From: Oscillospiraceae bacterium
Lineage (GTDB): Bacteria > Bacillota > Clostridia > Oscillospirales > CAG-272
Direction of reading: 5' to 3'
Length of the DNA stretch: 64,000 nucleotides
Assembly: GCA_015064805.1 (NCBI GenBank)
Contig: SVRN01000004.1
Span: forward strand, 24,965 to 88,964
Shown here: positions 7,445-64,000 of the stretch, piece after piece
Numbering within the stretch: position 1 is the first letter of the stretch
Layout: every line of letters starts with the position of its first letter
Translations under genes and position numbers: made by a program
Notes under the pieces: model-generated
The model's input: the letters and a program-made list of their open reading frames with translations, nothing else
Databases searched by the model: none
Told to the model about the DNA's origin: nothing

Positions 7445-9556
7445 ATGCGAGAATATGACAGAACACAAGAGCGCACGGGCGTACAGGAGAACCGCGATTG
7501 GGCACCTGAATACGACGTGCAGTCTGACTTTGTGATGGTATATGGCTTTCACGATCTGGAAAAGCGTGTTGCGCATTGGAAGGAGCACGGCTACGTCGTG
7601 CATTTGATGACGGGCGTTTCGTGGGGGCATTATAAGGATTATCTGTACGGCGAATTCGACGGCCGCGACCACCACGACGAAGGCCAGGTGCGAGGCGACG
7701 GCGTTGAGATCAACCACGGCGTTGACGTTCCGTACATGGTGCCCTCAATCTCCTACGCCCACTATCTGGCGGTCAATCTGAAAAAGGCCATCGACGCAGG
7801 CATTGACGCCATCCATCTGGAGGAGCCCGAATTCTGGGTCGCCGCAGGCTATTCCGAGGCCTTCAAGCGCGAGTGGCAGATCTATTACAAGGAACCCTGG
7901 CAGGCGCCCGATTCGAGTGCCGAGGCGCAGTACCGCGCGTCCAAGCTCAAGAGATATCTCTACACCCGCACGCTTGACCATCTGTGCGCCGAGCTGAAGG
8001 AGTACGCGCTGGTCAATTACGGAAGATTGCTCCGCTTCTACGTTCCTACCCACTCGCTGGTCAACTACAGCCAGTGGAGAATCGTCTCGCCCGAGTCGGC
8101 TTTGGTCGATTTGCCGACGATCGACGGTTATATTGCACAAATCTGGACGGGAACCTCCCGCACCGCCAATCGCTATCGCGGCGATCTGCGTGAGCGTACC
8201 TTCGATACTGCCTTTTTCGAGTACGGTATCATGCAGGAGCTGGTGCGCGGCTCGGGGCGCAGAATGTGGTATCTGCACGATCCCATCGAAGACGATCCCA
8301 ACCACACCTGGCGTGACTATCGCTACAACTACTATCGCACGCTGGTTGCCTCGCTGTTCCAGCCCGAGATCGCATCCTACGAGGTCTCACCCTGGCCGGC
8401 GCGCGTCATGACGGGTAAGCACAAGAGCGAGGACGGCACGCGCGACGAGGGCATCCCGCCCGAGTATAAGACCAACCTTCTGACCATCATGCACACCTTG
8501 CGCGACATGGAGGGGCAGGAGTGCCGCTGGGTGACCGATACCCGTCAGATCGGCATTTTGCTTGCCGACTCGGCCATGTATCAGCGTGCCTATCCCGAGG
8601 GCGTGCCCTATCGTCTGGAGGCCTCGACGGTGCGCTGGAATCCTTTCTACGGCTTGAGCCTGCCGCTGTTCAAGAGCGGCGCTTGCGTCCGTCCCGTTCA
8701 GCTGGACAACGTCCGCCGCTATGCGGGCTATCTGAACGATTACCGCGTACTGGTGCTGTCCTACGAATACATGAAGCCCGACGGCCCCGACCTGCACAAC
8801 GCCATTGCCGGCTGGGTGCGTGAGGGCGGCGTGCTGATGGTCGTTGGCGACGGCTCCGACGCTTTCCACAGCGTACGCGAATGGTGGAATCAGTCGGGCG
8901 CCGACTATCACGATCCCGCCCAGCATCTGTTCGAGGCGCTTGGCCTTGGCCGCGATCCCGCCGAGGGCGTCTACGGCGTGGGCAAAGGCCAGGTCGGTGT
9001 GTGCCGTTTGCATCCCATGAACATTGCCGAGAGCGGCGAGCTGTGTGACGACTACATGGCGCAAATGCACGCGTTGCTCCGTGCGGCAGACATGGACTTT
9101 GAGCCCTCCTCGCATCTGCTCATGCGCCGCGGTCCCTACACCGTGTCGGCCGTCATCAACGAAAGCGTTGACACCTCGCCCATGGTGGTTGAGGGCTTGT
9201 ATATGAATATGCTGGACGACAATCTGGCCGTCGTGCGCGATCCCGTACAGAATCCCGACGACGTCGGCTTCTGGATGGCGATCGACCCGAAATCGAGCGA
9301 GGCGGACGTTCTGGCGGCCTCGGGACGCGTGGAGAAGATCGCTCGCGCCGAGGGTGAGCTTTCTTTCAAGCTGACCGGTCCGTCCGAGATGAAGGCCTGC
9401 GTACGGTTGCAGACGCCGAGAAAGCCCGAGAGCATTTGTGTTATTTGCAAGGGCGAAGCTCTTGCATACGAAGCGCAGTACGACGAGGAGAGCTGTACGA
9501 CGTTGATCACGTTTGCATCGTCGGTAGAGGGTGTTGAGGTTGAAGTGGAGTTTTAA
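7445..9556 (+). CDS. Large hypothetical protein, probable glycoside-hydrolase-like TIM barrel plus GATase-like domain
   Basis: RBS before ATG 7445; IHLEEPEFW..GYSEAFKREW; Y.VLVLS..WVREGG.L resembles GH42-type trimerisation domain. Confidence 0.75.
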   Translation: MREYDRTQERTGVQENRDWAPEYDVQSDFVMVYGFHDLEKRVAHWKEHGYVVHLMTGVSWGHYKDYLYGEFDGRDHHDEGQVRGDGVEINHGVDVPYMVPSISYAHYLAVNLKKAIDAGIDAIHLEEPEFWVAAGYSEAFKREWQIYYKEPWQAPDSSAEAQYRASKLKRYLYTRTLDHLCAELKEYALVNYGRLLRFYVPTHSLVNYSQWRIVSPESALVDLPTIDGYIAQIWTGTSRTANRYRGDLRERTFDTAFFEYGIMQELVRGSGRRMWYLHDPIEDDPNHTWRDYRYNYYRTLVASLFQPEIASYEVSPWPARVMTGKHKSEDGTRDEGIPPEYKTNLLTIMHTLRDMEGQECRWVTDTRQIGILLADSAMYQRAYPEGVPYRLEASTVRWNPFYGLSLPLFKSGACVRPVQLDNVRRYAGYLNDYRVLVLSYEYMKPDGPDLHNAIAGWVREGGVLMVVGDGSDAFHSVREWWNQSGADYHDPAQHLFEALGLGRDPAEGVYGVGKGQVGVCRLHPMNIAESGELCDDYMAQMHALLRAADMDFEPSSHLLMRRGPYTVSAVINESVDTSPMVVEGLYMNMLDDNLAVVRDPVQNPDDVGFWMAIDPKSSEADVLAASGRVEKIARAEGELSFKLTGPSEMKACVRLQTPRKPESICVICKGEALAYEAQYDEESCTTLITFASSVEGVEVEVEF

Positions 9557-9566
9557 GTTTGTATAA

Positions 9567-10160
9567 CTTCTCCTACAGCCTCACACTGCGCGATTTCATC
9601 GCGCGCGTTCGGTGAAAGTTTATTGCCCCTTCTTTGCCTTGTCGCAAAGAAGGGGCGAAGAAAAGACACCAAGACGTTCCCTCTTGGAACTCCCTGGCAG
9701 CGCGAAAAGGTCGCGGCGCTCTCGCTCTGCTCATCTTTTCGCGAAGTTTCACGTCTTCAGCTTTTGCGTGCGCGAGTGAAAGAAACTCGCACACACCTAT
9801 TGGCAAAAGTTCTTGCTTTGGCCGCCCCCCGGCGCGCGTGATGAGTGCCGTCGGGTGATATAGAAAGAAAGCAGATATCTTTCTCTTGGTTCGCTTTGAA
9901 GCGCGGCGCGGCGTGAAGTGAAAAAAGATAGCTTGCTCGCAATAGGAGGCGGAGCTTTGGCTCCGCCGACGCAAACTTTGCAGATGCCAAAACGCCTTTT
10001 GGTAACCACCAAAAGATAGCAAAAGAAACAAGTTCTGCGGAGTTCCAAGGGGCATTAGGCCCCTTGGTCCTCTTTCTTGGTTCATTCTTTCTCGGACGAG
10101 AAAGAATGAACGCTAACGCACAGCGCGCCGCGTCGTGGCGCGCCAAAGCAAAGAACGTTA
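9567..10160. mobile_element. Family-1 structured intergenic element, copy A (two arms, long core)
   Basis: CTTCTCCTAC terminus, pseudoknot arms at 9625-9668 and 10067-10111, core shared with 14210-14560 and 59955-60365. Confidence 0.85.
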
Positions 10161-10223
10161 CATCCCCCACGCAAAAAAGGACCGCATGGATCAAATCTCC
10201 ATGCAGTCCTTTTGTTTTTACCA

Positions 10224-10661
10224 TCAAAGAAAGCTATCCGCAAAGGCCGTTGCCAGCGCGTCGCAGCGCTCGTTATACGGATGCCCCGTGTGTCCGTGTA
10301 CCCAAACGAAGCTCACTTTGTGCTTTTCCAGCAGCCCAAGCAAAACCTCCCATAGATCCACGTTGAGCGTCGGTGATTTGTCCGCCTTGCGCCAACCTTT
10401 GGCTCGCCACGACACCGCCCATCCCTTGGTAATGGCGTCAATGACGTACTTGGAGTCCGAGGTCAGCGTGACCTCGCAGGGCTCGCGAAGCGCCTGCAGC
10501 GCCGAGATGACGGCCGTCAGCTCCATGCGGTTGTTGGTGGTTTCCCGCTCACCGCCCGACAGCTCTTTTTCAATGCTTCCGTACACCAATATCGCGCCCC
10601 AACCGCCCCGTCCGGGATTGCCGCGGCAGGCACCGTCGGTATAAATATCCACGTGCTTCAT
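10224..10661 (-). CDS. rnhA: Ribonuclease HI
   Basis: [43 protein letters not shown]. Confidence 0.97.
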
Positions 10662-13920: not shown

Positions 13921-13976
13921 AAAAGCAAGGCGAGGATGTGAAGAACATTCTCGCCTTTTTTGACGGGGGAGGGGGG

Positions 13977-14694
13977 TAGCTGAATTTCAGGCGTCTTCTC
14001 CTCTTGACGCGCACAACGCGGGAACGAAAATATGTGCTTGTGGGGTGTTCAGTTACCCGCTCCCGAAGAATTTTGCTTGCAAAATTCTTCCCTTAGAAGC
14101 GCAATCTCTGCTTCGCGAGGGCGCTGTGTCGGTTTTGGTGTTCATTCTTTCTCGTCCGAGAAAGAACGAACCAAGAAAGCGGACTAAGGGGTCTAATACC
14201 CCTTAGAACCCCCGAGCGCGAAAAGGTCGCGGCGCTCGCGCTCTGCTCATCTTTTCGCGAAGTTATAAAAATTCAGCTTTTGCGTGCGCGAGTTAAAGAA
14301 ACTCGCACACACCTCAGGGCAGAAATTTTGAGTTTTTCGCCCGCCGCGCGTGTTGGCTTATAGCGAGAGATGCAGAAAAAACGTATATGTTTTTCTCCTC
14401 TATTTGCTATGAAACGCGGCGCGGAATGAAGTAGAAAACGATAGCCTGCTCGCAATAGCAACGGAATCTTTGGATTTCGTTGCGCAAAAATTGCAGACGC
14501 GATAACGCCTTTTGGTAACCACCAAAAGATAGCGAAAGCAAAAAATCTTGCGGGTTTCTTAAGGGCATTAGGCCCTTAAGTTCCCTTTCTTTCGCCATTT
14601 CTTTGTGGAACAACAAAGAAATGGCATCTTGGCAACACACCGAGCGCGCGAAGCTGGGCGGGGCTATAGGAGAAGATGCTGAAAAACTCAGCGA
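13977..14694. mobile_element. Family-1 element, copy B
   Basis: Termini TAGCTGAATTTCAGGCGTCTTCTCC / GGAGAAGATGCTGAAAAACTCAGCGA; pseudoknot arms 14140-14184 and 14580-14625. Confidence 0.85.
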
Positions 14695-14702
14695 TCTCCC
14701 CT

Positions 14703-15374
14703 CTACCTCCTCCTCACCACACTCCCATCCCCCTTCATCACACACCGCTCTCCGACGAATCCCCGCACCGAAACCGACGGATAAATCCTGCTCTCCCGCC
14801 CGATCACACAACCCGGATTGAGCACGCTGTTGCATCCGACCTCGACCAGATCTCCGATCATCGCCCCCAGCTTGTGCCGCCCTGACGGTATGCGGGCTTG
14901 CTCGACGCGAACGACGACGTCCGAGCGGTCGCCTTTGACGTTGGAGGTAATCGCCCCCGCCCCCAAATGCGCCCGATAGCCTAAGATCGAGTCGCCGACG
15001 TAGTTGAAATGCGGCACCTGAACGCCGTCAAATAAGACGCAGTTTTTCAGTTCGGTCGAGTTGCCGATGACGGCGCCGTCTCCAACCAGCGCCGCGCCGC
15101 GGATAAAGGCACAATGCCGCACCTCCGTGTCGTGCCCGATGATGCAGGGCGCACCGACGTGGGCGCTCGGGGCAATATGCGCCGTGCGCGCCGCCCAGAC
15201 GCCGTCTGCCAACTGCTCGTATTCGTCGCGGGGCAGCCGTTGCCCGACGGCACGGATGAAATCGGAAAGCAGGGGAAGAATTTCCCAAGGATACGAAGCC
15301 TTTTGCAAGAGGGGAAAGCCGAGCGTGTATTGCTCTGCATCGTGCCAGAGCGCCGCATAAGGAAATACTGCCAT
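14703..15374 (-). CDS. GlmU C-terminal-like hexapeptide (LbH) acetyltransferase
   Basis: EVRHCAFIRG, GNSTELKN, QVPHFNYVGDSILG, GAMIGD.VEVGCNSVLNPG. Confidence 0.88.
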   Translation of the reverse strand: MAVFPYAALWHDAEQYTLGFPLLQKASYPWEILPLLSDFIRAVGQRLPRDEYEQLADGVWAARTAHIAPSAHVGAPCIIGHDTEVRHCAFIRGAALVGDGAVIGNSTELKNCVLFDGVQVPHFNYVGDSILGYRAHLGAGAITSNVKGDRSDVVVRVEQARIPSGRHKLGAMIGDLVEVGCNSVLNPGCVIGRESRIYPSVSVRGFVGERCVMKGDGSVVRRR

Positions 15375-17826: not shown

Positions 17827-18399
17827 TAGCTAAACTTTTCACAACTTCGTAGCCGGGCTCACACTGCTTCGCGCGTTCGCTGTACCGGCTTTGGTTGTCA
17901 CTTCTTGTCTCGTGACAAGAAGTAACCAAGAAACACGCCCAGGCGTTCCCCCTGGGAACCCCCTCCATCCCTCCGGCCTTTCATGGCCGTCGGGGATTTT
18001 TGTTCAGCAAACCTTCTCCATCTGCGGGGCATATATCCCACCCCGCAGATGGGTTGGCTTGGCAAAAGCTTTTGCTTTTCCGTTCTGTTTGAGATTCCGT
18101 CTATCACAGGGAACGAGGCAAAAATTATCGTCCTTTGCAAAAGCGGAGTCCGAGCAACTCCCGTGAGTGCGACTTTCTTTAAGTCGCGCTCGCAAAAGCT
18201 GAAGATGCTCACTTTTGCGTCGTGCTGCGCGCTTGCGCGCCCGCAAAGACGCACTGCGGGAATCCAAAGGGCATTAAGCCCTTTGGCGCGTTTCTTCCGC
18301 CACTTCTTGCCGCGCAGCAAGAAGTGGCATCAAAACTGCACAGCGCACGCGCACGAAGTGCAGTGTGAGCGTCAAAAGAAGAAGTTGCCGAAAATTTAG
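17827..18399. mobile_element. Family-1 element, copy C (different core)
   Basis: GCTCACACTG / CAGTGTGAGC inverted ends; pseudoknot arms 17897-17937 and 18286-18328; inverted core module at 18163-18210. Confidence 0.8.
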
Positions 18400-22995: not shown

Positions 22996-23583
22996 ATGAA
23001 AAAGTTTGTATGTCCCGTTTGCGGTTACGTCCATGAGGGTGAGAGCGCACCCGAGAAGTGCCCCGTTTGCAAGGTTCCCGGTTCCAAGTTCACCGAGGTC
23101 AAGGGTGAGATGAAGCTGGCCGCTGAGCACGAGTACGGCGTATACGCCAAGACCGTCAAGAACAACCCCGACATCTCCGAGGAAGACAAGAAGTACATCT
23201 TCGAGCAGCTGATGGCGAACTTCCAGGGCGAGTGCTCCGAGGTTGGTATGTATCTGTGCATGGCTCGCATCGCACACCGCGAGGGCTATCCCGAGATCGG
23301 TCTGTACTGGGAAAAGGCCGCTTGGGAGGAAGCAGAGCACGCAGCAAAGTTTGCAGAGCTCCTCGGTGAGGATCTCGAGCCCAACATGAAGGCGACCACC
23401 AAGGATAACCTGAAGTGGAGAGTTGACTGCGAGTACGGCGCAACCCAGGGTAAGTTCGACCTGGCCGCTTGCGCCAAGAAGAACGGTCTGGACGCCATCC
23501 ACGACACCGTTCACGAAATGGCCAGAGACGAGGCTCGCCACGGCCGCGGTCTGGAAGGTCTGCTCAACAGATATTTCAAGTAA
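22996..23583 (+). CDS. Reverse rubrerythrin / NADH peroxidase
   Basis: N-terminal CPVCGY..CPVC rubredoxin; [19 protein letters not shown] diiron ligands. Confidence 0.95.
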
Positions 23584-23598
23584 TATAAACGTGCCTCC

Positions 23599-23766: not shown

Positions 23767-24834
23767 ATGCAAACGGATAGCTTCAAATCTGAACGACTCC
23801 ACGGAATAGATGTGCTGCGCGTTATTCTGTCTTTTTGCGTCATTACTCTTCATATTTTGTATTATGGCGGTTTTTGGGAGCAGGCAGATCCTTCTGATCC
23901 CACATTCTATTTTTTATGGTTTGTGGGCATAGCAATTGATGGCACGGTAAACTGCTTTGCAATTATCACCGGCTTTGTGCTGTACAATAAACCCACCAAA
24001 TATTCCGGTGTTCTGTATCGTTTCTTAACGGTGTTGTATCACGGCCTGCTGATTACGGCTCTGTTTTGGATTTTTTGCTCGGAGATCGTACACAAAGCAA
24101 ATTGGATTCAGGCGTTGTTTCCAATTGCTTATGAGGAGTTTTGGTATTTTACTGCATATTTGGGTGCGTTTTTCTTCGCTCCGCTTGTTTCAAAAGGAAT
24201 GCAGGCGTTATCCAGGAAGCAGGCAAATGTGCTGATTTTGGCCTTGATTCTTGTTTTTAGCCTGTTTCCTACGGCAACAGGCAAGGATCCGTTCCATTTG
24301 AAGTACGGATATAGTGCTTTTTGGCTTTTGATACTATTTACTATTGGTGCCTATCTGAGAAAATACCATATGGAATTTCGGTTCAGACCTCGTTTTTATG
24401 CGTGCCTCTTTGCCGGATGCATTCTGGTCACTTGTCTTGGCGTAGTTTTATCGATGGTCTATCCTTCCTTTTATGGTATGCGATTGATAGAGTATACGTC
24501 CCCTACCATTGTTTTGGCCGCCATTGCGCTAGTCTTGCTTTTCGCGTCCGTGCATGTTTCCCCGGGGCTCCAAAAGATATGTGTTTTCTGTACAAGTTTC
24601 ACGTTCAGCATATACTTATTACACGAACAGCCTTTGGTCCGTCAGAGCCTTATAAATGACAGATTTGTTCCAGTGCTGTCCCTTCCCGGTGTTCTTCAAC
24701 TTGCGATCATTCTGGCAAGCACAGTTGTTATATGGGTCGTTTGTTTCTGCCTCGATTTGATCCGACAGCTCGTATTTCGAATTTTGAAGATCGATTCGTT
24801 GCTCCACAAGCTAGACAAGCGGCTGCAATCTTAG
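23767..24834 (+). CDS. Acyltransferase family 3 (OafA-like) membrane protein
   Basis: R..GID.LR, H, VNCF..ITG, WYF.AY, TF.IYLLH; AT-richer codon usage than neighbours. Confidence 0.9.
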   Translation: MQTDSFKSERLHGIDVLRVILSFCVITLHILYYGGFWEQADPSDPTFYFLWFVGIAIDGTVNCFAIITGFVLYNKPTKYSGVLYRFLTVLYHGLLITALFWIFCSEIVHKANWIQALFPIAYEEFWYFTAYLGAFFFAPLVSKGMQALSRKQANVLILALILVFSLFPTATGKDPFHLKYGYSAFWLLILFTIGAYLRKYHMEFRFRPRFYACLFAGCILVTCLGVVLSMVYPSFYGMRLIEYTSPTIVLAAIALVLLFASVHVSPGLQKICVFCTSFTFSIYLLHEQPLVRQSLINDRFVPVLSLPGVLQLAIILASTVVIWVVCFCLDLIRQLVFRILKIDSLLHKLDKRLQS

Positions 24835-24951
24835 AGCGAGGATTCCAAAATACATAACGCAAGCCCACCGTTCACGAAATGGCCAGAGACGAGGCTCGCC
24901 ACGGCCGCGGTCTGGAAGGTCTGCTTAACAGATATTTTAAGTAATCAATAA

Positions 24952-25200
24952 ATGCGAGGGGAAAACTTTTTTGAAAAAAAGCTTTCCCCTCGCGCTCCCT
25001 TTTCAAAAAACCGAAAAAAGGAACAACGCTTATATAAAATTTTCGGTCAAGCCTTTTTTAAAAGGCTTGCAGGTCGAGGACGGCGTCCTCGTCGCTCTCC
25101 GCAGAGAGCGAAATCTTTTATGATCTCCAAGCGCCCGAAAGGGTGAATTTTCCGCGCTCGCGCGGAAAAGAGGGGAAACCACAAGTGGGGTTTTCCTTTT
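24952..25200. repeat. Family-2 REP-like palindrome cluster
   Basis: GGGGAAAACTTTTTTGAAAAAAAGCTTTCCCC plus a hairpin series shared with 52627-52800 and 31210-31290. Confidence 0.85.
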
Positions 25201-25211
25201 TTTATTTCTGA

Positions 25212-30980: not shown

Positions 30981-31620
30981 GCGGGGGAAAAACTTTTTGA
31001 AAAAAGTTTTTCCCCCGCGCCCCCTTTTCAAAAACTTTGAAAAAAGATATATGGCAAAAAGGGAAGTGCCTGCGCGAACTTTGGCCATAGCTGTCGCAAG
31101 CTTCCGGGGCCCCAACCCCATCCGCTCTGCCGAATAGCACTTGCACAAAAAGCCCCGCGCCCCCTTTTCTAAAACTTTGAAGAAAAAAGTTTTAGTTTTC
31201 TAAATACGAAAAAGTTTTCGCCCGCCTTTTTCAAAAGGCGGCGCGGTGGAGGGCGCGTAGCCCTCCTCGTGCTCCGCAGAGCGCGAAACACTCTTTTGGC
31301 GTTTCTTTTTGAAAGCTTTTTCTTTGCGCCTGCGCAACCAAAGAAAAAGCGGCTAACGAGTTTTGCTTTGTTATACCTTTTTCCAAAAAGTTTTTAGGCG
31401 GGGTTTGGGGCGGAGCCCCACATCGTCCCCCTTTGCAAACAAATGGGGCAGGGGCCCCATGGAGAGTTTTGCAGAACGCAGGAACAGCGTACAAGGCCCC
31501 CCATTTATTTTCCTTCGAAAGTTTTTGAAATTCCTAAAAACTTTTTTCCAAAAAGTTTTTAGGCGGGGTTTGGGGCGGAGCCCCATATCGTCCCCCGCCA
31601 ATGGGGGCAGAGCCCCAAAT
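30981..31620. repeat. Dense composite cluster of family-2 palindromes with an internal ~50-bp direct repeat and one pseudoknot unit
   Basis: TTTTCCAAAAAGTTTTTAGGCGGGGTTTGGGGCGGAGCCCCA twice (about 31379 and 31545); pseudoknot unit at 31298-31350. Confidence 0.85.
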
Positions 31621-33076: not shown

Positions 33077-33445
33077 TAGCTGAAATTCAAGCACCTTCTC
33101 CTTTTGACGTGCGTACAGCTAGTTTTGTGTTCATGCTTGCATGACGCCCGTGTTTAGCGGGCGAGCAAAACTTGTTATTTCGCTTGCGAAATATGGCTTC
33201 GCGCCGCGCTGTGCTGTATTTGATGTACTTTCTTTGTCGCTGAACAAAGAAAGTACCAAAGAAAGTCAGCTCGGACGTTCCCTCCGAGGCCTCCCTTGGC
33301 ATTGCCGCTCTACAAAGAGGATCAAGAGATAGACATAACGGTCTATTGTGCTTTGCTTCAAGGTAGCCATCACGAGCGGCAGATATGCCAAAGCAAGAAA
33401 TTTTGCGGGGTGCCAAGGGCATTCGCTTTCACCGGGCGCGCGCCA
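33077..33445. mobile_element. Family-1 element, copy D (left arm, short core, degenerate right arm)
   Basis: TAGCTGAAATTCAAGCACCTTCTCC terminus; pseudoknot 33225-33270. Confidence 0.8.
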
Positions 33446-39163: not shown

Positions 39164-39237
<74 letters not shown>

Positions 39238-39242
39238 AGCGT

Positions 39243-39319
39243 GTGCCTTTAGCTCAGTCGGATAGAGCAACTGCCTTCTAAGCAGTAGGTCGGGGGTTCG
39301 AATCCCTCAAGGCACGCCA
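39243..39319 (+). tRNA. tRNA-Arg(TCT)
   Basis: GTGCCTT/AAGGCAC acceptor, CTTCTAA loop, GGTTCGAATCC, CCA. Confidence 0.97.
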
Positions 39320-39327
39320 TTGTTTAC

Positions 39328-39405
39328 GGTGGGTATAGCTAAGTTGGTTATAGCGCCAGGTTGTGGCCCTGGAGGCCGTGGGTTCGAGTCCCATTACTCA
39401 CCCCA
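39328..39405 (+). tRNA. tRNA-His(GTG)
   Basis: G-1, GTGGGTA/TACTCAC acceptor, TTGTGGC loop, GGTTCGAGTCC, CCA. Confidence 0.96.
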
Positions 39406-39610: not shown

Positions 39611-40205
39611 ATTTGTTTTCTCCAATACTGCTGCTTCTCAGCTTGTTTCGGATGCGATAGATGGCGTTGTGGATGGATCGGACGTCGCGACCGAGCTGCT
39701 CGGCGATCTGCGCGGCCGTCATGCCGGCGATGTAGCGCTGCCAGATGGCGTTCTCGTAGGGCGAAAGAACGCGGGCGATGCGGCGGCAAAGTGCTTCGTA
39801 GTCTTCCTGCTCGCGCAGGCGCTGTGAGGGGTCCTCTTCGCTTCCCGCGGGGAGAGTGATCATGGTGTCGTAGTCCAACAGCTCGCTTGACGGATGTATT
39901 TTACGCAGGGCTGAGACGAGCGCGTTTTCAATGCAGATCTTCGCGTAAAGACCAAAGCTGACGTCATGCTGCTCGACGTTATAGCCCAGCAGGGCGCGGT
40001 AAAAGGCCAGATGCGCCTCCTGCCGCAGGTCTTTTTCGTCCTCGGGGAGAATGTCGGGGCGGCGGGCGCGTACGGTCTGAAGGCGATGCTCGATCAAAGG
40101 AGTGTACTGTGTCAGGAGAGCGTCAAAGGCGGTTTGGTCGCCGGATTTGGCAAGGGAGAGAAGGGTGATGGTTTCGGGGGTATCGAGGATCTTCTCGTCT
40201 GACAT
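39609..40205 (-). CDS. Sigma-70 family factor, SigH-like
   Basis: GD..AF..L..QY.PLI, DL.QE, SF..YA.ICI.N, LS.YE, IAEQL....SIHNAIYRIR.KL. Confidence 0.88.
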   Translation of the reverse strand: MSDEKILDTPETITLLSLAKSGDQTAFDALLTQYTPLIEHRLQTVRARRPDILPEDEKDLRQEAHLAFYRALLGYNVEQHDVSFGLYAKICIENALVSALRKIHPSSELLDYDTMITLPAGSEEDPSQRLREQEDYEALCRRIARVLSPYENAIWQRYIAGMTAAQIAEQLGRDVRSIHNAIYRIRNKLRSSSIGENK

Positions 40206-40244
40206 GGGGAGCTCCTTTCATTTTATTTTGGTGGGGTTGGATGG

Positions 40245-40620
40245 AGTTTTCAACGACTACTCCTTTTGACGCGCGTACAGCTGCGCGCCGCGCTGTGCGA
40301 TATTTGATGTACTTTCTTTGTCGCTGAACAAAGAAAGTACCAAAGAAAATCAGCCAAGACGTTCCCTCTTGGATCTCCCCTGTCCGTGCCGCTCTTCATA
40401 GAGTAGCAGGAGAAAGACATAAGGACTTATTCTGCATCGCTCGCCACATAGCCACCACGAGCGGCAGATATGGGGAGCAAAATTTGTTAAAGCAAGTCTA
40501 TTTTGATGGAGCGAGAGGGGGAGGGGCCCCCTGAGCTAGCGGTAGCCGATTTCGCCGCAGGCGAAATCTCTATGGAACAGAGCACGTTCTTCCCCCCTAC
40601 AGGGTCAGGAGAAGTTGTTC
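40245..40620. mobile_element. Family-1 element, copy E
   Basis: CTACTCCTTTTGACGCGCGTACAGC left end; pseudoknot 40309-40354; AGGAGAAGTTG right-terminus motif near 40607. Confidence 0.75.
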
Positions 40621-40644
40621 CGGCTGCGCTCCTGCTTTTTCTTG

Positions 40645-40695
40645 TAAAGTTTTTTGAGGGGGCAGGGGAACTTTTTTTCAAAAAAGTTCCCCTCG
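40645..40695. repeat. Family-2 palindrome
   Basis: AGGGGAACTTTTTTTCAAAAAAGTTCCCCT. Confidence 0.75.
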
Positions 40696-40718
40696 TACTT
40701 CTCGTACTCCTCGTTCTC

Positions 40719-41300
40719 TCAACTAAACAAATAATTCACGTTGCCCGACAAGAGAGACCACATACCCTTATAGATCGCCTCGGGGCGAGCGCGGAAGTTT
40801 TCTTCCATTTGATTGGCGCGGATCATGGAGTCAACGCTTACCCGCGTTTCAAACAGCACCTTGCCGTCCTGCTCCACCGAGCAGAAAAATTCAGCCGTGC
40901 CGTCAGGACACTGGGTGACAGTACACCGCGTTTTGATGCCGCGGCGTCGGAAATCCAGATAGCGCAGCGCGCAACGCAGGCTTTCATCCAGAATGGTGGG
41001 CAAAAGCTCGCTATGCAGCTGCTCTGCAACGATACGGCCCTTGGGCGTGACGACGTAGCGCGGCTCGTCTGCGGGAGCGCCACCCTCGGTGCTGTCGTCA
41101 ATGGGCTCGTCTGACATTTCGATGAGCGCGTCGTCGAGCAGCTCGTGGAACGCCTCGGCCATGTCCAGGTACATGACGTAGTCGGTCTGCATGACCATAT
41201 CGTTGAGCGTCGCGAAATCCAGAGGAATGCGGACGTTCTGCATTAAATATAAAAGGAAAATTTTTACGTTGCGTTTGCCGCCAAGAGCACTGCTTGCCAT
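40719..41300 (-). CDS. DUF4364-family protein
   Basis: KIFLLY.M, Y.VT.KG, F...PE.IY pattern. Confidence 0.75.
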   Translation of the reverse strand: MASSALGGKRNVKIFLLYLMQNVRIPLDFATLNDMVMQTDYVMYLDMAEAFHELLDDALIEMSDEPIDDSTEGGAPADEPRYVVTPKGRIVAEQLHSELLPTILDESLRCALRYLDFRRRGIKTRCTVTQCPDGTAEFFCSVEQDGKVLFETRVSVDSMIRANQMEENFRARPEAIYKGMWSLLSGNVNYLFS

Positions 41301-44097: not shown

Positions 44098-45222
44098 TTA
44101 TTCTGCCGGCTTGGCAAGATCGCTCTTGGTCAGGGTTCCGTCGGAGCAGACCACGGAGTAGTCTGCCGTTCCGCTGTCCCAATCGTCGCCAAAGGTGATG
44201 CTTTGCCATTGTTCCATCGTGCCGCCGAAGCGAATCGAGGTCAGGGCGCTACAGCCGGAAAAGGCCAGCATATCAATTTCCTCGATGGTGGCGGGTAGGG
44301 TGATCTCCCAAAGGGACGAGCAATCCAGGAACGCTCTGTCGTCGATGACCTTGAGGGTATCGGGCAGAACGAGACGCTCCAGGGAAGTGCATTGCCCAAA
44401 GGCAGTCTGGCCGATGAGCCATACGCCGTCGCCGAAATCTACGGTTTTTAAGCTCGTGCAACCGTAAAACGTCGAGACACCGACGTCAGACACGGGGTCG
44501 GGAAGGGTGATGCTCTCAAGTGCGGTGCATTCAAAGAATGCGCCGTGGTCGAGCATCTCCACGTCCTTTCCGAGCGCCACCTCCGAAAGGGCAGTGCAAA
44601 AGGCAAACGCATTGTTGCTGATACGGTAGACGCCGTCGGGAATGATAATGCTCTTCAGCGCAGTACAGCCCAAGAAGGCGCTGTCGCCGACGTATATGCC
44701 CATTTGGTTGTTCGACACGTCATATACGACGCCCTCGGGAAAGGTCACTTGCTCAAGAGCAGTACAGCCCTGGAAGGAGGCGGCACCGACCGTCTCGATG
44801 CCCTTACCGAGCGTCACGCTCGTAAGAGAGGTGCATTCGTGAAAGGACCAGTTACCGATTTCGGTGACGCTGTCAGGAATGACGATGCCTTCCAAAGAGG
44901 TGCATTCCTCAAACGCCCCTTCTCCAATATACGTTAAGGTGTCGGGAAGATCGATCTCGGGCAGATTTTTACAGCCTGCAAATGCATGGGAAGCAATGCC
45001 GATAACCGTATGACCGAGTATTGTACGAGAGATATGAATCCGGTTGATGTTTTTGTCGGAGACGCTTGCGAGCTCACAGGCTTTTTCCGAAACGTCCGAA
45101 TCTTCAACGAGAAGATACGTTATTTGACCGTGGTTGACGGGGAAACTGCACGATGAGAGGAAAATCGCACAAAAAACCGATAAAAGGCAAGCAAGGCTCA
45201 GAATTCTGATACTCTTTTTCAT
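44098..45222 (-). CDS. BspA-like LRR_5 surface lipoprotein
   Basis: LSSC lipobox; repeated I.IPDSVT.IG..AF..CT.L. Confidence 0.93.
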   Translation of the reverse strand: MKKSIRILSLACLLSVFCAIFLSSCSFPVNHGQITYLLVEDSDVSEKACELASVSDKNINRIHISRTILGHTVIGIASHAFAGCKNLPEIDLPDTLTYIGEGAFEECTSLEGIVIPDSVTEIGNWSFHECTSLTSVTLGKGIETVGAASFQGCTALEQVTFPEGVVYDVSNNQMGIYVGDSAFLGCTALKSIIIPDGVYRISNNAFAFCTALSEVALGKDVEMLDHGAFFECTALESITLPDPVSDVGVSTFYGCTSLKTVDFGDGVWLIGQTAFGQCTSLERLVLPDTLKVIDDRAFLDCSSLWEITLPATIEEIDMLAFSGCSALTSIRFGGTMEQWQSITFGDDWDSGTADYSVVCSDGTLTKSDLAKPAE

Positions 45223-48857: not shown

Positions 48858-49112
48858 TGGAATTTTAACAACTTTTTCTACGGGACGGCGCGCCACAACG
48901 CGGCGCGCGTGCGGTTGTGTTACTTCTTTCTCATTCAAGAAAGAAGTAACCAAGAAAGTGAACCAAGACGTTCCCTCTTGGAACTCCTTTCCCGTGCCGC
49001 GCTACAAAGCAGAAAAGGAGAAAGACATATAGTTTTATTATACATCTCTCGCCGTTTTATCACCACGTGCGGCAGATATAGAAAGCGAAAAGTCTTGCGG
49101 GGTGTCAAGGAG
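48858..49112. mobile_element. Family-1 element, copy F (short)
   Basis: Pseudoknot 48919-48962, CCAAGACGTTCCCTCTTGG hairpin, GCCGC..GCGGC module. Confidence 0.8.
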
Positions 49113-52626: not shown

Positions 52627-52800
52627 AAAGTTTTTAGTCAAGTTTTTTTCAAAAAACTTGCAGAGTCCAGAGACAGCGTCTCTGGTCGCCCTCCGCAGAG
52701 GGCGAAATTCTTTATCCTTACCAAGCGCCCGAAGGGGTGAATTGTCAATCGCTTGCGATTGACAAGAGGGGAAACCACAAGTGGGGTTTCCCCTTTTTTT
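52627..52800. repeat. Family-2 element
   Basis: Colinear with 25040-25200 (CAAGCGCCCGAA.GGGTGAATT, AAGAGGGGAAACCACAAGTGGGGTTT). Confidence 0.85.
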
Positions 52801-59829: not shown

Positions 59830-60492
59830 CTTCTCCTACGGACGCGCGTACAGCTACGCGCCGCGCTGTATCGGGTTGGATGCCCTTTCTTTGTCGCTGA
59901 ACAAAGAAAGGGCCAAAGAAAATCAGCCAAGGGGCCTAATACCCCTTGGGACCCCCGAGCGCGAAAAGTCGTTCCGCTGGCGCTCCACTCATTTTTTCGC
60001 GAAAGCAAGCATCTTCAGCTTTTGCGTTTGCAAGTTAAAGAAACTTGCAAACACGAAAGACGCACGCAAGCGAAGAAGCAAACGTTTTTGCTATTTGCGA
60101 CGCGCCCCAGTTCAGCTAATCTTCTGACAAAAACGATTTTGCATCCCCTGCCCGCCGCGCGTGGAAGCTATACGGCGAGAGATGCAGAATAAACTTTTAT
60201 GTTTTTCTCGTGAAGCACTTTGAAGCGCGGCACGGAATAAAGCGGAAAATGATCGCCTGCTTACAGCAGGAGGCAAATCTTTGGATTTGCCGACGCAAAG
60301 ATTGCAGATGCGATAACGCCTTTTGGTAACCACCAAAAGATAGCGAAAGAAACAAGTCTTGCGGGCTTCTTAAGGGCATTAGGCCCTTAAGTGTCTTTTC
60401 TTCGCCTATTCTTTGCGACAAGGCAAAGAATAGGCATAAATATGAACAGCGAACGCGCGCCGAAGGCACAGGGTGAGCGTCCGTAGGAGAAA
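59830..60492. mobile_element. Family-1 element, copy G, with perfect 15-bp terminal inverted repeat
   Basis: TTCTCCTACGGACGC (59831-59845) / GCGTCCGTAGGAGAA (60477-60491); pseudoknots 59882-59927 and 60392-60435. Confidence 0.9.
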
Positions 60493-63751: not shown

Positions 63752-64000
63752 TGGCTAAATCTTTTACTGCTTACTCCTACGGACGCTCACACTGTGCTTC
63801 GCACGCGCTCGCGGCTTGTTTTTTTATGTTCATTCTTTGCCGCGCGGCAAAGAACGAACCAAGAAAGCGCGCCAAAGGCTGCCGCCTTTGGAAACTGCTT
63901 CCGTGCCGCTCTTCAAAGCGGGTTAGGGAGAAAGACATATAGTTATTAAGTGCATCGCTCGCCGCGCAGCTACCACGAGCGGCAAATATGGTGGGGCAAG
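63752..64000. mobile_element. Family-1 element, copy H (truncated by the window end)
   Basis: CTCCTACGGACGCTCACACTG terminus; pseudoknot 63828-63872; short core. Confidence 0.8.

What the first reader, a model, noticed from the sequence alone, without database searches (positions are those of the whole stretch)
10067..10111. Covarying pseudoknot plus triple-helix unit in the element arms (13 instances)
Seen: on the pyrimidine-linker strand the unit is S1-L1-S2-S1'-S2', e.g. GTCC TCTTTCTTG GTTCATTCTTTCTC GGAC GAGAAAGAATGAAC. The S1 pair changes between copies yet stays complementary: GTCC/GGAC (10067, 14140), GTTCC/GGAAC (14580), GCGCG/CGCGC (18286, 63828), CGT(G)/(C)ACG (17897), GCTGA/TCAGC (33225, 40309, 59882), TTCA/TGAA (48919), TGTC/GACA (9625, 60392), GGCG/CGCC (31298). 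The linker matches the purine strand of S2 in parallel and changes with it: TTTCTT with AAAGAA, TTTCTTT with AAAGAAA, TTTCTTTTT with AAAGAAAAA. Established: this is the geometry of H-type pseudoknots with U.A-U and C.G-C major-groove triples (as in telomerase RNA), and of intrastrand pyrimidine-motif DNA triplexes. Inference: a conserved tertiary fold near the 3' end of the element on each strand, acting as an enzyme recognition site or a 3'-end protector.
Basis: partly seen in the sequence, partly recalled or inferred. Interest (0 to 1): 0.88.

Follow-up and report, generated by a model that had tools for sequence, protein, structure and literature searches.

The report
Covarying pseudoknot in abundant intergenic repeat
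A short hairpin whose loop always matches a nearby stretch of sequence recurs hundreds of times between the genes of an uncultured gut Clostridia bacterium and its relatives, which points to a folded knot-like structure that is under selection but whose job is still unknown.

Summary
The loop/flank complementarity is real. 12 of the 13 listed instances belong to one family; 31298 does not. The unit is a 12-14 bp hairpin, a 7-9 nt purine linker, then 4-5 nt (S1) complementary to the loop, abutting a second hairpin (hp2).

It is a module in the inverted arms of a mosaic intergenic repeat: 215 arms in this 2.2 Mb genome, 168 of them in 84 inverted pairs.

In 150 aligned arms all four core loop:S1 pairs are Watson-Crick in 133. 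Dealing S1 blocks to other arms gives a mean of 17. There are 14 complementary types, and 11 type pairs differ by one compensated pair. A covariance model found the same architecture, with further types, in seven genomes of at least five other genera (36 of 42 units).

The triple-helix claim is not established. Linker composition tracks the purine arm, but parallel and antiparallel matches score alike. On the pyrimidine-linker strand only 1-2 nt remain for the third connector.

At orthologous sites in sister species a ~96-nt block holding the unit is swapped. No Rfam family, cognate transposase or published description was found.

Best reading: an H-type pseudoknot in single-stranded nucleic acid, probably RNA. 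Its function is inferred, not shown.

The parts
10067..10111 (-). The finding's unit (right arm of element 1). On the + strand: S1 10067-10070, pyrimidine linker 10071-10079, hairpin 10080-10111 (loop GGAC 10094-10097). The purine-linker form is on the - strand.
10045..10067 (.). Second hairpin (hp2) of the right arm. It shares base 10067 with S1. With the following pyrimidine tract it scores as terminator-like on the + strand.
   Evidence: hp2 helix 97.2% paired, 5 of 5 pairs with compensated changes
9625..9669 (+). Left arm of element 1: hairpin 9625-9656 (loop CTTGTC 9638-9643), purine linker 9657-9664, S1 GACAC 9665-9669. hp2 is 9669-9687.
9557..10170 (.). Whole mosaic element 1. It lies between the stop of the + strand ORF at 9556 and a bidirectional terminator-like hairpin at about 10175-10215. 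It has outer modules, two inverted arms and interior hairpins.
10020..10115 (.). ~96-nt block (spacer + hp2 + S1 + linker + hairpin) that is replaced by another type in sister genome G010, while the rest of the element is about 96% identical.
   Evidence: alignment; best other copy in this genome is 90% over 89 nt
14140..14184 (+). Unit, left arm of element 2 (loop GTCC / S1 CGGAC).
14580..14625 (-). Unit, right arm of element 2 (form A loop TGTTCC / S1 GGAAC).
17897..17938 (+). Unit, left arm of element 3 (loop TCGT+G / S1 CACG).
18286..18328 (-). Unit, right arm of element 3 (form A loop TGCGCG / S1 CGCGC).
33225..33270 (+). Unit, unpaired arm (loop CGCTGA / S1 TCAGC).
40309..40354 (+). Unit, unpaired arm (loop CGCTGA / S1 TCAGC).
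48919..48963 (+). Unit, unpaired arm (loop CATTCA / S1 TGAAC).
59882..59927 (+). Unit, left arm of the element at 59.8-60.5 kb (loop CGCTGA / S1 TCAGC).
60391..60435 (-). Unit, right arm of the same element (form A loop CTTGTC / S1 GACAC).
63828..63872 (+). Unit, arm near the window end (loop GCGC / S1 CGCGC).
31298..31360 (.). It is a different hairpin with a 12-nt loop, in another local repeat.
   Evidence: nhmmer E = 0.79; families D14-D16 nearby

Best explanation
The unit is one module of an abundant, order-wide family of mosaic intergenic repeats.

In single-stranded form it folds into a 12-14 bp hairpin. The 3'-most 4-5 loop bases pair with the segment (S1) that follows a 7-9 nt purine linker. 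This is an H-type pseudoknot, packed directly against a second hairpin.

I think the fold most likely forms in RNA when the repeat is transcribed as part of a 3' UTR or an intercistronic region. On the purine-linker strand the loop lengths are ordinary: a 1-2 nt connector, and an 8-9 nt A-rich linker running along the long stem. Because the arms are inverted, any read-through transcript carries one arm in that orientation.

The likely role is a compact structure that stalls nucleases or helicases, or binds a protein. That would set or protect RNA ends, as REP/BIME and BOX repeats are thought to do.

Shown: the family, its abundance, both hairpins and the loop:S1 pairing by covariation, block-wise exchange at orthologous sites, and conservation across genera.

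Inferred: that the molecule is RNA, which strand folds, and the function.

A Hoogsteen triple helix is neither required nor shown.
For: Abundance and layout
- nhmmer gave 389 hits, 242 non-overlapping loci, and 215 at E<1e-5 in 2.2 Mb.
- 84 adjacent arm pairs lie in inverted orientation, 181-612 nt apart, with no gene between them.

Covariation
- Whole structure 94.5% paired against 72.6% shuffled and 39-50% slid. The pseudoknot helix has 4 of 5 pairs with compensated changes.
- 133 of 150 arms are fully paired against a mean of 17.3 after dealing; 14 complementary types.
- 11 pairs of types share the same 5' arm and differ by one compensated pair. Half-changed intermediates are seen in 0-3 arms each.
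- The MI scan picks the predicted partners. There is no nested alternative.

Independent lineages
- Covariance model R1 matched 8 of 121 genomes of the order, including this one.
- In the seven others, 36 of 42 units have a loop:tail complement of 4 bp or more. With tails taken from another genome the mean is 3.7 and the maximum 10. Further types include TTGAC, CCGG, CAGAC, CACA, CACG, GTCGC and GAAA.

Selection on each copy
- No element is 90% or more identical to another over 90% or more of its length (0 of 84; median best HSP 81%). Yet the stems are 97% Watson-Crick.

Transcribed context, two sites inspected
- Element 1 lies between a stop codon (9556) and a bidirectional terminator-like hairpin (about 10175-10215).
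- Element 2 lies between the terminator-like hairpin after 13920 and the stop of the - strand ORF at 14703.

No orientation bias to flanking genes: 101 same strand, 98 opposite. This fits a symmetric inverted-arm design.
Against: - No expression data. Only contigs of two metatranscriptome runs could be laid, and the element-to-gene depth ratio was the same in RNA and DNA runs.
- On the purine-linker strand the commonest stem family carries an A.C mismatch. In 392 arms there are 97 A.C and 13 C.A against 3 T.G. Pseudoknot mismatches lean the same way: 19 C.A/A.C against 3 T.G. Both favour the other strand, where they would be G.U. hp2 leans the opposite way: 97.2% against 95.7% standard pairs. 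These counts trace to few independent events.
- 8-9 nt spanning a 13-bp stem is tight.
- About 20 arms carry another module in place of S1.
- Block exchange and near-identical copies in G061 would also fit a DNA-level mobile element.
- No terminator, promoter or protein partner has been tied to the unit.
Confidence: 0.5

Rival explanations
1. The fold is a single-stranded DNA structure read by a recombination or transposition enzyme, on the logic of REPIN/RAYT or IS200/IS605. The hairpin plus a base-paired 'guide' marks the block that is copied or exchanged at fixed palindromic docking sites.
For: - A ~96-nt block holding exactly hp2 + S1 + linker + hairpin is swapped between G000 and G010 inside an otherwise about 96% identical element.
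- In 11 orthologous-arm comparisons at 5 sites, 8 carry a different type. Six of those 8 are still complementary.
- G010 has only the outer palindromic modules where G000 has element 2. G012 has outer modules without the unit at site 1.
- G061 holds many near-identical units, several at contig ends: 7 of 15 are identical over the first 62 nt.
- There is no orientation bias to genes.
- The mismatch asymmetry could reflect one strand being exposed.
Against: - No cognate enzyme was found. The four RAYT-like Y1 ORFs (best NCBIfam hit REP_Tyr_transpos, 71.6 bits, under its cut-off of 80) sit in their own ~0.9-kb units with different end hairpins. No repeat arm lies within about 2 kb of them.
- No IS110 or TnpB was found.
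- No target-site duplication was seen.
- In this genome no full element has a near-identical copy, and the swapped block's best other copy is 90%.
- Stems are far better kept than neutral decay of old copies would allow.
Confidence: 0.25
2. On the pyrimidine-linker strand the unit forms a telomerase-like H-type pseudoknot. The pyrimidine linker lies in the major groove of the long stem as U.A-U / C+.G-C triples (or the DNA equivalent) and protects a 3' end.
For: - In the finding's copy, 8 consecutive linker bases are triplex-compatible in register from the junction (register delta = 1 in 154 of 217 combinations).
- Linker composition and length follow the stem in several lineages.
- Two asymmetric cases favour the mirror relation. 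Stem AAAGAA goes with linker AAGAAA in this genus, and stem AAGAAAG with linker AAAGAAG in G043 and G061.
- Stem and pseudoknot mismatches would be G.U on this strand.
Against: - Parallel is not better than antiparallel overall. In G047, G017, G018 and one class here the linker is a direct repeat of the 3' arm by a wider margin: antiparallel 7-9 against parallel 5-6.
- Only 1-2 nt are available to cross the shallow groove of the 4-5 bp S1:loop helix. By the classical rule (recalled) that is too short.
- C+.G-C triples need protonation.
- hp2 wobbles point to the other strand.
Confidence: 0.1
3. No tertiary fold forms in cis. The complementarity serves pairing in trans (between transcripts or copies of the same type), or is a by-product of how the block is generated.
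For: - Types are shared by many copies, so a loop could find S1 of another copy.
- The helix is short. Duplex energies of 4-5 bp range from -0.4 to -7.5 kcal/mol.
- One G043 copy has its loop inverted and has lost the match.
Against: - The partner always sits at a fixed 7-9 nt distance in the same unit.
- Linker length follows stem length.
- I could find no replication or repair mechanism that writes the loop's complement beyond a linker.
- The architecture is conserved across genera whose GC content ranges from 0.31 to 0.67.
Confidence: 0.1
4. Artefact of shared ancestry or chance.
For: Copies fall into subfamilies, so raw counts overstate the number of independent events.
Against: - There are 14 distinct complementary types in this genus and about 9 more elsewhere.
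- There are 11 single compensated steps within identical stems.
- Slid and dealt controls collapse.
Confidence: 0.02

Closest known systems
REP / BIME / REPIN repeats with RAYT transposases (Proteobacteria)
   Same: - Hundreds of intergenic copies.
- Hairpin-forming units arranged in inverted pairs, with mosaic make-up.
- Compensated stem changes.
- Location in transcribed intergenic regions.
(Abstracts of PMC3116915, PMC2817692 and PMC3337134 seen in the listing; the rest is recalled.)
   Different: - The units are larger: arms of about 100 nt and elements of 0.3-0.8 kb.
- No GTAG/CGTC tag.
- A loop:flank pseudoknot.
- The Y1 transposase-like genes here have their own distinct end hairpins and are not flanked by these arms.
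Pneumococcal BOX / RUP / SPRITE and neisserial Correia elements
   Same: Modular, Firmicutes-type interspersed repeats that are predicted to fold and are found in transcripts. (Abstract of PMC3049150 seen in the listing; details recalled.)
   Different: - No sequence relation.
- I am not aware of a covarying pseudoknot described in them. Searches found none.
Classical H-type pseudoknots with a long first stem (coronavirus IBV-type frameshift stimulators)
   Same: On the purine-linker strand: an 11-13 bp stem, a 1-2 nt first loop, a 4-6 bp second helix, and a last loop of about 8 nt that is A-rich. (IBV dimensions are recalled.)
   Different: - Not in a coding region; no slippery site.
- Hundreds of copies per genome.
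- The second helix is short, with a 4 bp core.
Triple-helix pseudoknots (telomerase RNA, SAM-II / preQ1-II riboswitches) and ENE/MALAT1 3'-end triple helices
   Same: On the pyrimidine-linker strand the order S1 - pyrimidine loop - stem 2 is the same. The linker is triplex-compatible with the purine arm.
   Different: - The third connector is only 1-2 nt.
- No parallel-specific covariation.
- No ligand or poly(A) partner.
IS200/IS605 subterminal hairpins with guide/cleavage-site pairing
   Same: A hairpin plus a short covarying base-paired tetranucleotide near an element end, read as single-stranded DNA (recalled; abstract of PMC6006769 seen).
   Different: - There the guide lies at the foot of the hairpin, not in the loop.
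- Those elements have no inverted arms.
- No linked TnpA was found here.

Membership tests
H-type pseudoknot (structural class) | Two helices in which loop bases of the first pair with a segment outside it, each supported by covariation | tested here: met
   Hairpin 97% paired with 6 compensated pairs. Loop:S1 has 4 compensated pairs. 133 of 150 arms are fully paired against a mean of 17.3 after dealing.
H-type pseudoknot (structural class) | Connector lengths that can span the grooves | tested here: inconclusive
   Lengths were read from A1. On the purine-linker strand they are 1-2 nt and 8-9 nt. On the other strand they are 8-9 nt and 1-2 nt. Judged only by the classical rule (recalled). My coordinate scripts rested on recalled fibre values of uncertain polarity and are discarded.
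Telomerase-type triple-helix pseudoknot | Pyrimidine loop pairing in parallel with the purine strand of stem 2, shown by covariation specific to that polarity | tested here: not met
   Parallel 5.81 against antiparallel 5.91. Counts are 79/64/74 of 217, and 3/6/6 of 15 in other genera.
Telomerase-type triple-helix pseudoknot | A third loop long enough to cross stem 1's shallow groove | tested here: not met
   Only 1-2 nt lie between the loop core and the 3' arm on that strand.
REP/REPIN-RAYT system | Repeats flank a single-copy RAYT gene and share its end sequences | tested here: not met
   Four RAYT-like ORFs were found. Each has different end hairpins, which themselves recur about 12 times. 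No repeat arm lies within about 2 kb of them.
REP/REPIN-RAYT system | Inverted pairs of hairpin-forming repeats at high copy number | tested here: met
   84 inverted pairs among 215 arms.
MITE (non-autonomous DDE-transposon derivative) | Terminal inverted repeats plus target-site duplication and a related autonomous element | tested here: inconclusive
   Inverted arms are present. No duplication was visible at the two sites compared. No pair of arms enclosing a transposase was seen: the one pair with genes between is 8.6 kb apart and was not examined.
Any Rfam family | Match at the family's gathering score | tested here: not met
   Only three tRNAs were found in the window. On 9500-10250 nothing came near a gathering score at E up to 10.
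Intrinsic terminator | G+C-rich hairpin directly followed by a U tract, at an RNA 3' end | tested here: inconclusive
   hp2 plus S1 and the pyrimidine linker match the consensus scan on the pyrimidine-linker strand at 10045, 9687 and 40372. No 3'-end data are available.

The most novel reading that the evidence does not exclude
The pseudoknot, together with the mirror-like purine/pyrimidine linker, is the recognition structure of an undescribed machinery. That machinery would swap ~96-nt structured cassettes at fixed palindromic docking sites across an order of gut Clostridia. Alternatively the unit is a bacterial triple-helix knot that caps RNA 3' ends. Either would be a new class of structured mobile or regulatory nucleic acid.
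Probability: 0.12. Interest if true: 0.9.

Novelty: new variant of a known kind. Interest (0 to 1): 0.68.

Why it matters
Interspersed bacterial repeats are usually described as simple hairpins. Here a repeat family carries a pseudoknot with unusually rich covariation: over 20 complementary types, seen in this genus and at least five others. That is strong evidence that a tertiary fold, not just a palindrome, is what selection sees.

The family is abundant in uncultured gut Clostridia and is absent from Rfam. It shows block-wise exchange at orthologous sites.

It offers a natural set of compensatory mutants for testing what such repeats do. It also gives a handle for finding the protein that reads them.

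Tried and rejected
1. RAYT/IS200 link. PF01797 gave one weak hit (24.7 bits). A protein search found four paralogues. Their flanks carry other hairpins, and they look like their own IS200-like units. Rejected as the cognate enzyme on present evidence. The phyletic pattern is only suggestive: a match in 5 of the 7 repeat-rich congeners and in 1 of 5 repeat-poor ones.

2. IS110, TnpB and reverse transcriptase. None was found for the first two. The single RT is retron-like.

3. Expression. Only Logan contigs of two metatranscriptome runs were available. Summed depth over the elements rises about as much in the DNA runs as in the RNA runs. No conclusion on transcription, strand or ends.

4. Groove-spanning distances from a fibre model. 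The coordinates were recalled, the polarity assignment turned out uncertain, and the second script's sign change gave an unphysical helix. Both are discarded. Only the textbook rule, marked as recalled, is used.

5. Strand from wobble pairs. The stem and pseudoknot favour the pyrimidine-linker strand and hp2 favours the other. There are few independent events. Left unresolved.

6. Nested alternatives for S1 (upstream flank, or the segment after hp2). Single-sequence folds suggested some. Neither the MI scan nor RNAalifold supports them.

7. A first loop-complement count was contaminated by hits to both strands of the palindrome. It was redone after de-duplication. The position-only parse mis-places S1 in some arms: 252 of 364 are complementary. 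A1 is therefore the cleaner count.

8. Sigma-70-like promoter scan. 0 found in element 1. One weak match in 40100-40800, at 40253-40225 on the - strand, just outside the arm.

9. Literature. No paper holds the three element strings. Topic searches and passages of the Minerva preprint ('find' passages only) describe nothing like it. Supplements were not opened.

Full report
WHAT IS THERE

At 10067-10111 the + strand reads S1 (GTCC), a pyrimidine linker (TCTTTCTTG), then a 14-bp hairpin whose 4-nt loop (GGAC) is the complement of S1. A second hairpin, hp2 (10045-10067), abuts S1 and shares one base with it.

I call the reverse-complement orientation 'form A'. In form A the order is hairpin, purine linker, S1, hp2. 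The finding's own orientation is 'form B'.

A profile built from twelve of them recovers those twelve at E<1e-5. The thirteenth (31298) scores only E=0.79. It is a different hairpin with a 12-nt loop, and it sits in another local repeat.

THE FAMILY

The window lies in a 2.2-Mb, 54% G+C draft genome. Contig titles of related MAGs label them Eubacteriales, Clostridia or Oscillospiraceae bacteria from animal gut.

nhmmer gives 389 hits. These collapse to 242 non-overlapping loci, 215 of them at E<1e-5. That is about one arm per 10 kb.

Of the 215 arms, 168 form 84 adjacent inverted pairs. In each pair form A comes first and form B second. The pairs are 181-612 nt apart, fall into discrete size classes, and have no gene between them. 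Ten arms fall inside my crude ORF calls.

The outer flanking gene is on the same strand as form A in 101 cases and on the opposite strand in 98.

Beyond the hairpin each arm continues outward for roughly 45-110 nt. This stretch holds a G+C-rich module and a terminal module. The interior is a mosaic of further hairpin modules.

Two elements were inspected for context. Both lie between a stop codon and a bidirectional terminator-like hairpin. They would therefore be co-transcribed with a flanking gene.

THE COVARIATION

On an alignment of 150 distinct arms (12 from the window, 138 from relatives' loci) I named three helices and counted pairs.

- Hairpin: 97.0% paired.
- hp2: 97.2% paired, with 5 of 5 pairs compensated.
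- Loop:S1 helix: four core pairs are standard in 148, 146, 145 and 139 of 150 arms, each with at least three pair types.
- Fifth pair (29:62): forms in only 64 of 150. Its 3' base is a near-invariant C that also opens hp2.
- Whole structure: 94.5% paired, against 72.6% in column shuffles and 39-50% when partners are slid.

Further controls for the loop:S1 helix:

- All four core pairs are Watson-Crick in 133 of 150 arms. Dealing S1 blocks to other arms gives a mean of 17.3 and a maximum of 35.
- Sliding the partner gives 10-31% Watson-Crick against 95.2% in register.
- There are 14 distinct fully complementary 4-mer types.
- An unguided mutual-information scan names, for each S1 column, exactly the predicted loop column.
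- RNAalifold finds no nested partner for either segment.
- Eleven pairs of types share an identical 5' arm and differ by one compensated pair. Half-changed intermediates occur in 0-3 arms each.

In arms with a '4-nt loop', S1 also pairs with the first base of the 3' arm (33:58 is G-C in 57 rows). All arms therefore reduce to one architecture: a stem of 12-13 bp, a 6-nt loop with 1-2 spare bases on its 5' side in form A, and a 4-5 bp second helix.

INDEPENDENT LINEAGES

A covariance model of the two nested hairpins only matched 8 of 121 genomes drawn from the order, counting this one. I fetched 40 such loci from the seven others. Their G+C content ranges from 0.31 to 0.67.

The same order of parts is present. 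In 36 of 42 units the loop has a complement of 4 bp or more at the same place. With the tail taken from another genome the mean is 3.7 and the maximum 10. New types appear.

One G043 copy has its loop inverted and has lost the match.

Within the genus, 7 of 12 other genomes gave 9-33 matches to a 2-kb query holding element 1. Four gave only the flanking gene, and one gave none.

THE LINKER AND THE TRIPLE HELIX

The linker is always a purine tract in form A, and its composition follows the purine arm.

- Stems with an uninterrupted T/A run have all-A linkers in G047, G017 and G018.
- The one-base deletion in the stem of one class goes with a one-base shorter, shifted linker.
- G at linker column 55 occurs in 23 of 23 arms whose stem has C at column 26, against 34 of 126 whose stem has G there.

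The claim that the match is parallel, as a triplex needs, is not borne out.

- Over 217 distinct combinations the longest parallel run averages 5.81 and the longest antiparallel run 5.91. Parallel is longer in 79, equal in 64 and shorter in 74.
- A unit's own linker beats dealt linkers by about 0.4 nt in both polarities.
- In the other genera the split is 3 parallel, 6 equal and 6 antiparallel of 15.
- Some asymmetric cases favour the mirror relation by one base. Others show a 7-9 nt direct repeat of the 3' arm.

The data say the linker co-evolves with the stem. They do not say how.

WHICH STRAND, WHICH MOLECULE

In form A, stem mismatches are 97 A.C and 13 C.A against 3 T.G in 392 arms. Pseudoknot mismatches are 19 C.A/A.C against 3 T.G. 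These would be wobble pairs on form B.

hp2 shows the reverse: 97.2% standard pairs on form A against 95.7% on form B. Most of these counts come from a few columns, so few events. I leave the strand open.

By the textbook rule for H-type pseudoknots (recalled, not computed here), form A has ordinary connectors: 1-2 nt across the deep groove of a 4-5 bp helix, and 8-9 nt along the shallow groove of the long stem. Form B needs 1-2 nt to cross the shallow groove of the S1:loop helix, which is too short.

My attempt to compute these distances is discarded.

TURNOVER

No element in this genome is 90% or more identical to another over 90% or more of its length (0 of 84; median best HSP 81%). Yet the stems are almost free of mismatches. 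This argues for selection on each copy.

At orthologous sites the unit is nevertheless unstable. In 11 arm comparisons at 5 sites, 3 keep the type and two of these show a compensated stem change. The other 8 carry a different type: 6 are still complementary, 1 is broken, and 1 has another module in place of S1.

The G000/G010 alignment of element 1 has about 16 differences in about 460 positions by my count. The exception is a sharply bounded block, roughly 10020-10115, that holds hp2, S1, the linker and the hairpin and is of another type in G010. The block's best other copy in this genome is 90% identical.

G010 keeps only the outer modules where G000 has element 2. G012 has outer modules without the unit at site 1. 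G061 has many near-identical units.

WHAT IT IS NOT

- No Rfam family matches.
- The Y1 transposase-like ORFs have their own ends.
- No IS110 or TnpB was found. The only RT is retron-like.
- No publication holds the element's sequences, and topic searches found no description.
- Expression could not be judged.

VERDICT

The observation of a covarying loop:flank helix is confirmed and extends across genera. The pseudoknot reading is well supported. The triple helix and the telomerase analogy are not.

The most likely mechanism is a compact RNA fold acting in 3' UTRs and intercistronic regions (about 0.5). A single-stranded DNA recognition structure for block exchange is the main rival (about 0.25).

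Noticed in passing
G000 contigs C76:71700-72640, C88:17320-18060, C24:25580-26800, C69:1170-1760 (outside the window): Four RAYT/IS200-like Y1 transposase ORFs. Each is bracketed by two other conserved hairpins that recur about 12 times in the genome. They look like a separate small IS200-like family. The C24 copy lacks the expected tyrosine in the WQ..Y.DH region, and C69 is N-terminally short.
   Followed up: partly
about 20 arms genome-wide, e.g. G000 C76:56149-56281, C88:23870-24006: An ~85-nt module with its own small hairpin is inserted exactly between the purine linker and hp2. A constant GCGCG sits where S1 would be, whatever the loop. Other arms end in a third module right after the linker.
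   Followed up: partly
window 10175-10215 and 13925-13965: Strong bidirectional terminator-like hairpins flanked by A and T runs. The repeat elements sit between a stop codon and these hairpins, not beyond them.
   Followed up: partly
window 10045-10080 (+), 9687-9660 (-), 40372-40345 (-): hp2 followed by S1 and the pyrimidine linker scores as an intrinsic-terminator-like site reading outward through each arm.
   Followed up: no
window 24958-25203, 30983-31600, 52682-52799: A second family of intergenic repeats, with G/C-clamped A/T-rich palindromes (families D13-D18).
   Followed up: no
window 23505-23584 and 24866-24945: Two 80-nt direct repeats, 98% identical, bracket the ORF at 23767-24834.
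   Followed up: no
window 44491-44928: Four copies of a 63-nt repeat at 138/99/138 spacing inside the - strand ORF 44098-45222. Probably a repeated protein motif.
   Followed up: no
window 39164-39402: Cluster of three tRNA genes (Rfam).
   Followed up: no
G000 C66:3820-5004 (L129:1120-2304): Single retron-type reverse transcriptase (best NCBIfam hit retron St85 family, 218 bits, under the cut-off of 235).
   Followed up: partly
L152:36-116 (G043): One unit has its hairpin loop as the reverse complement of its neighbours' loop (ACAA against TTGT). It looks as if the palindrome had flipped, and the S1 match is lost.
   Followed up: no
G061, many contig ends: Near-identical units sit at the ends of many contigs. 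This suggests a recent expansion that breaks the assembly.
   Followed up: partly
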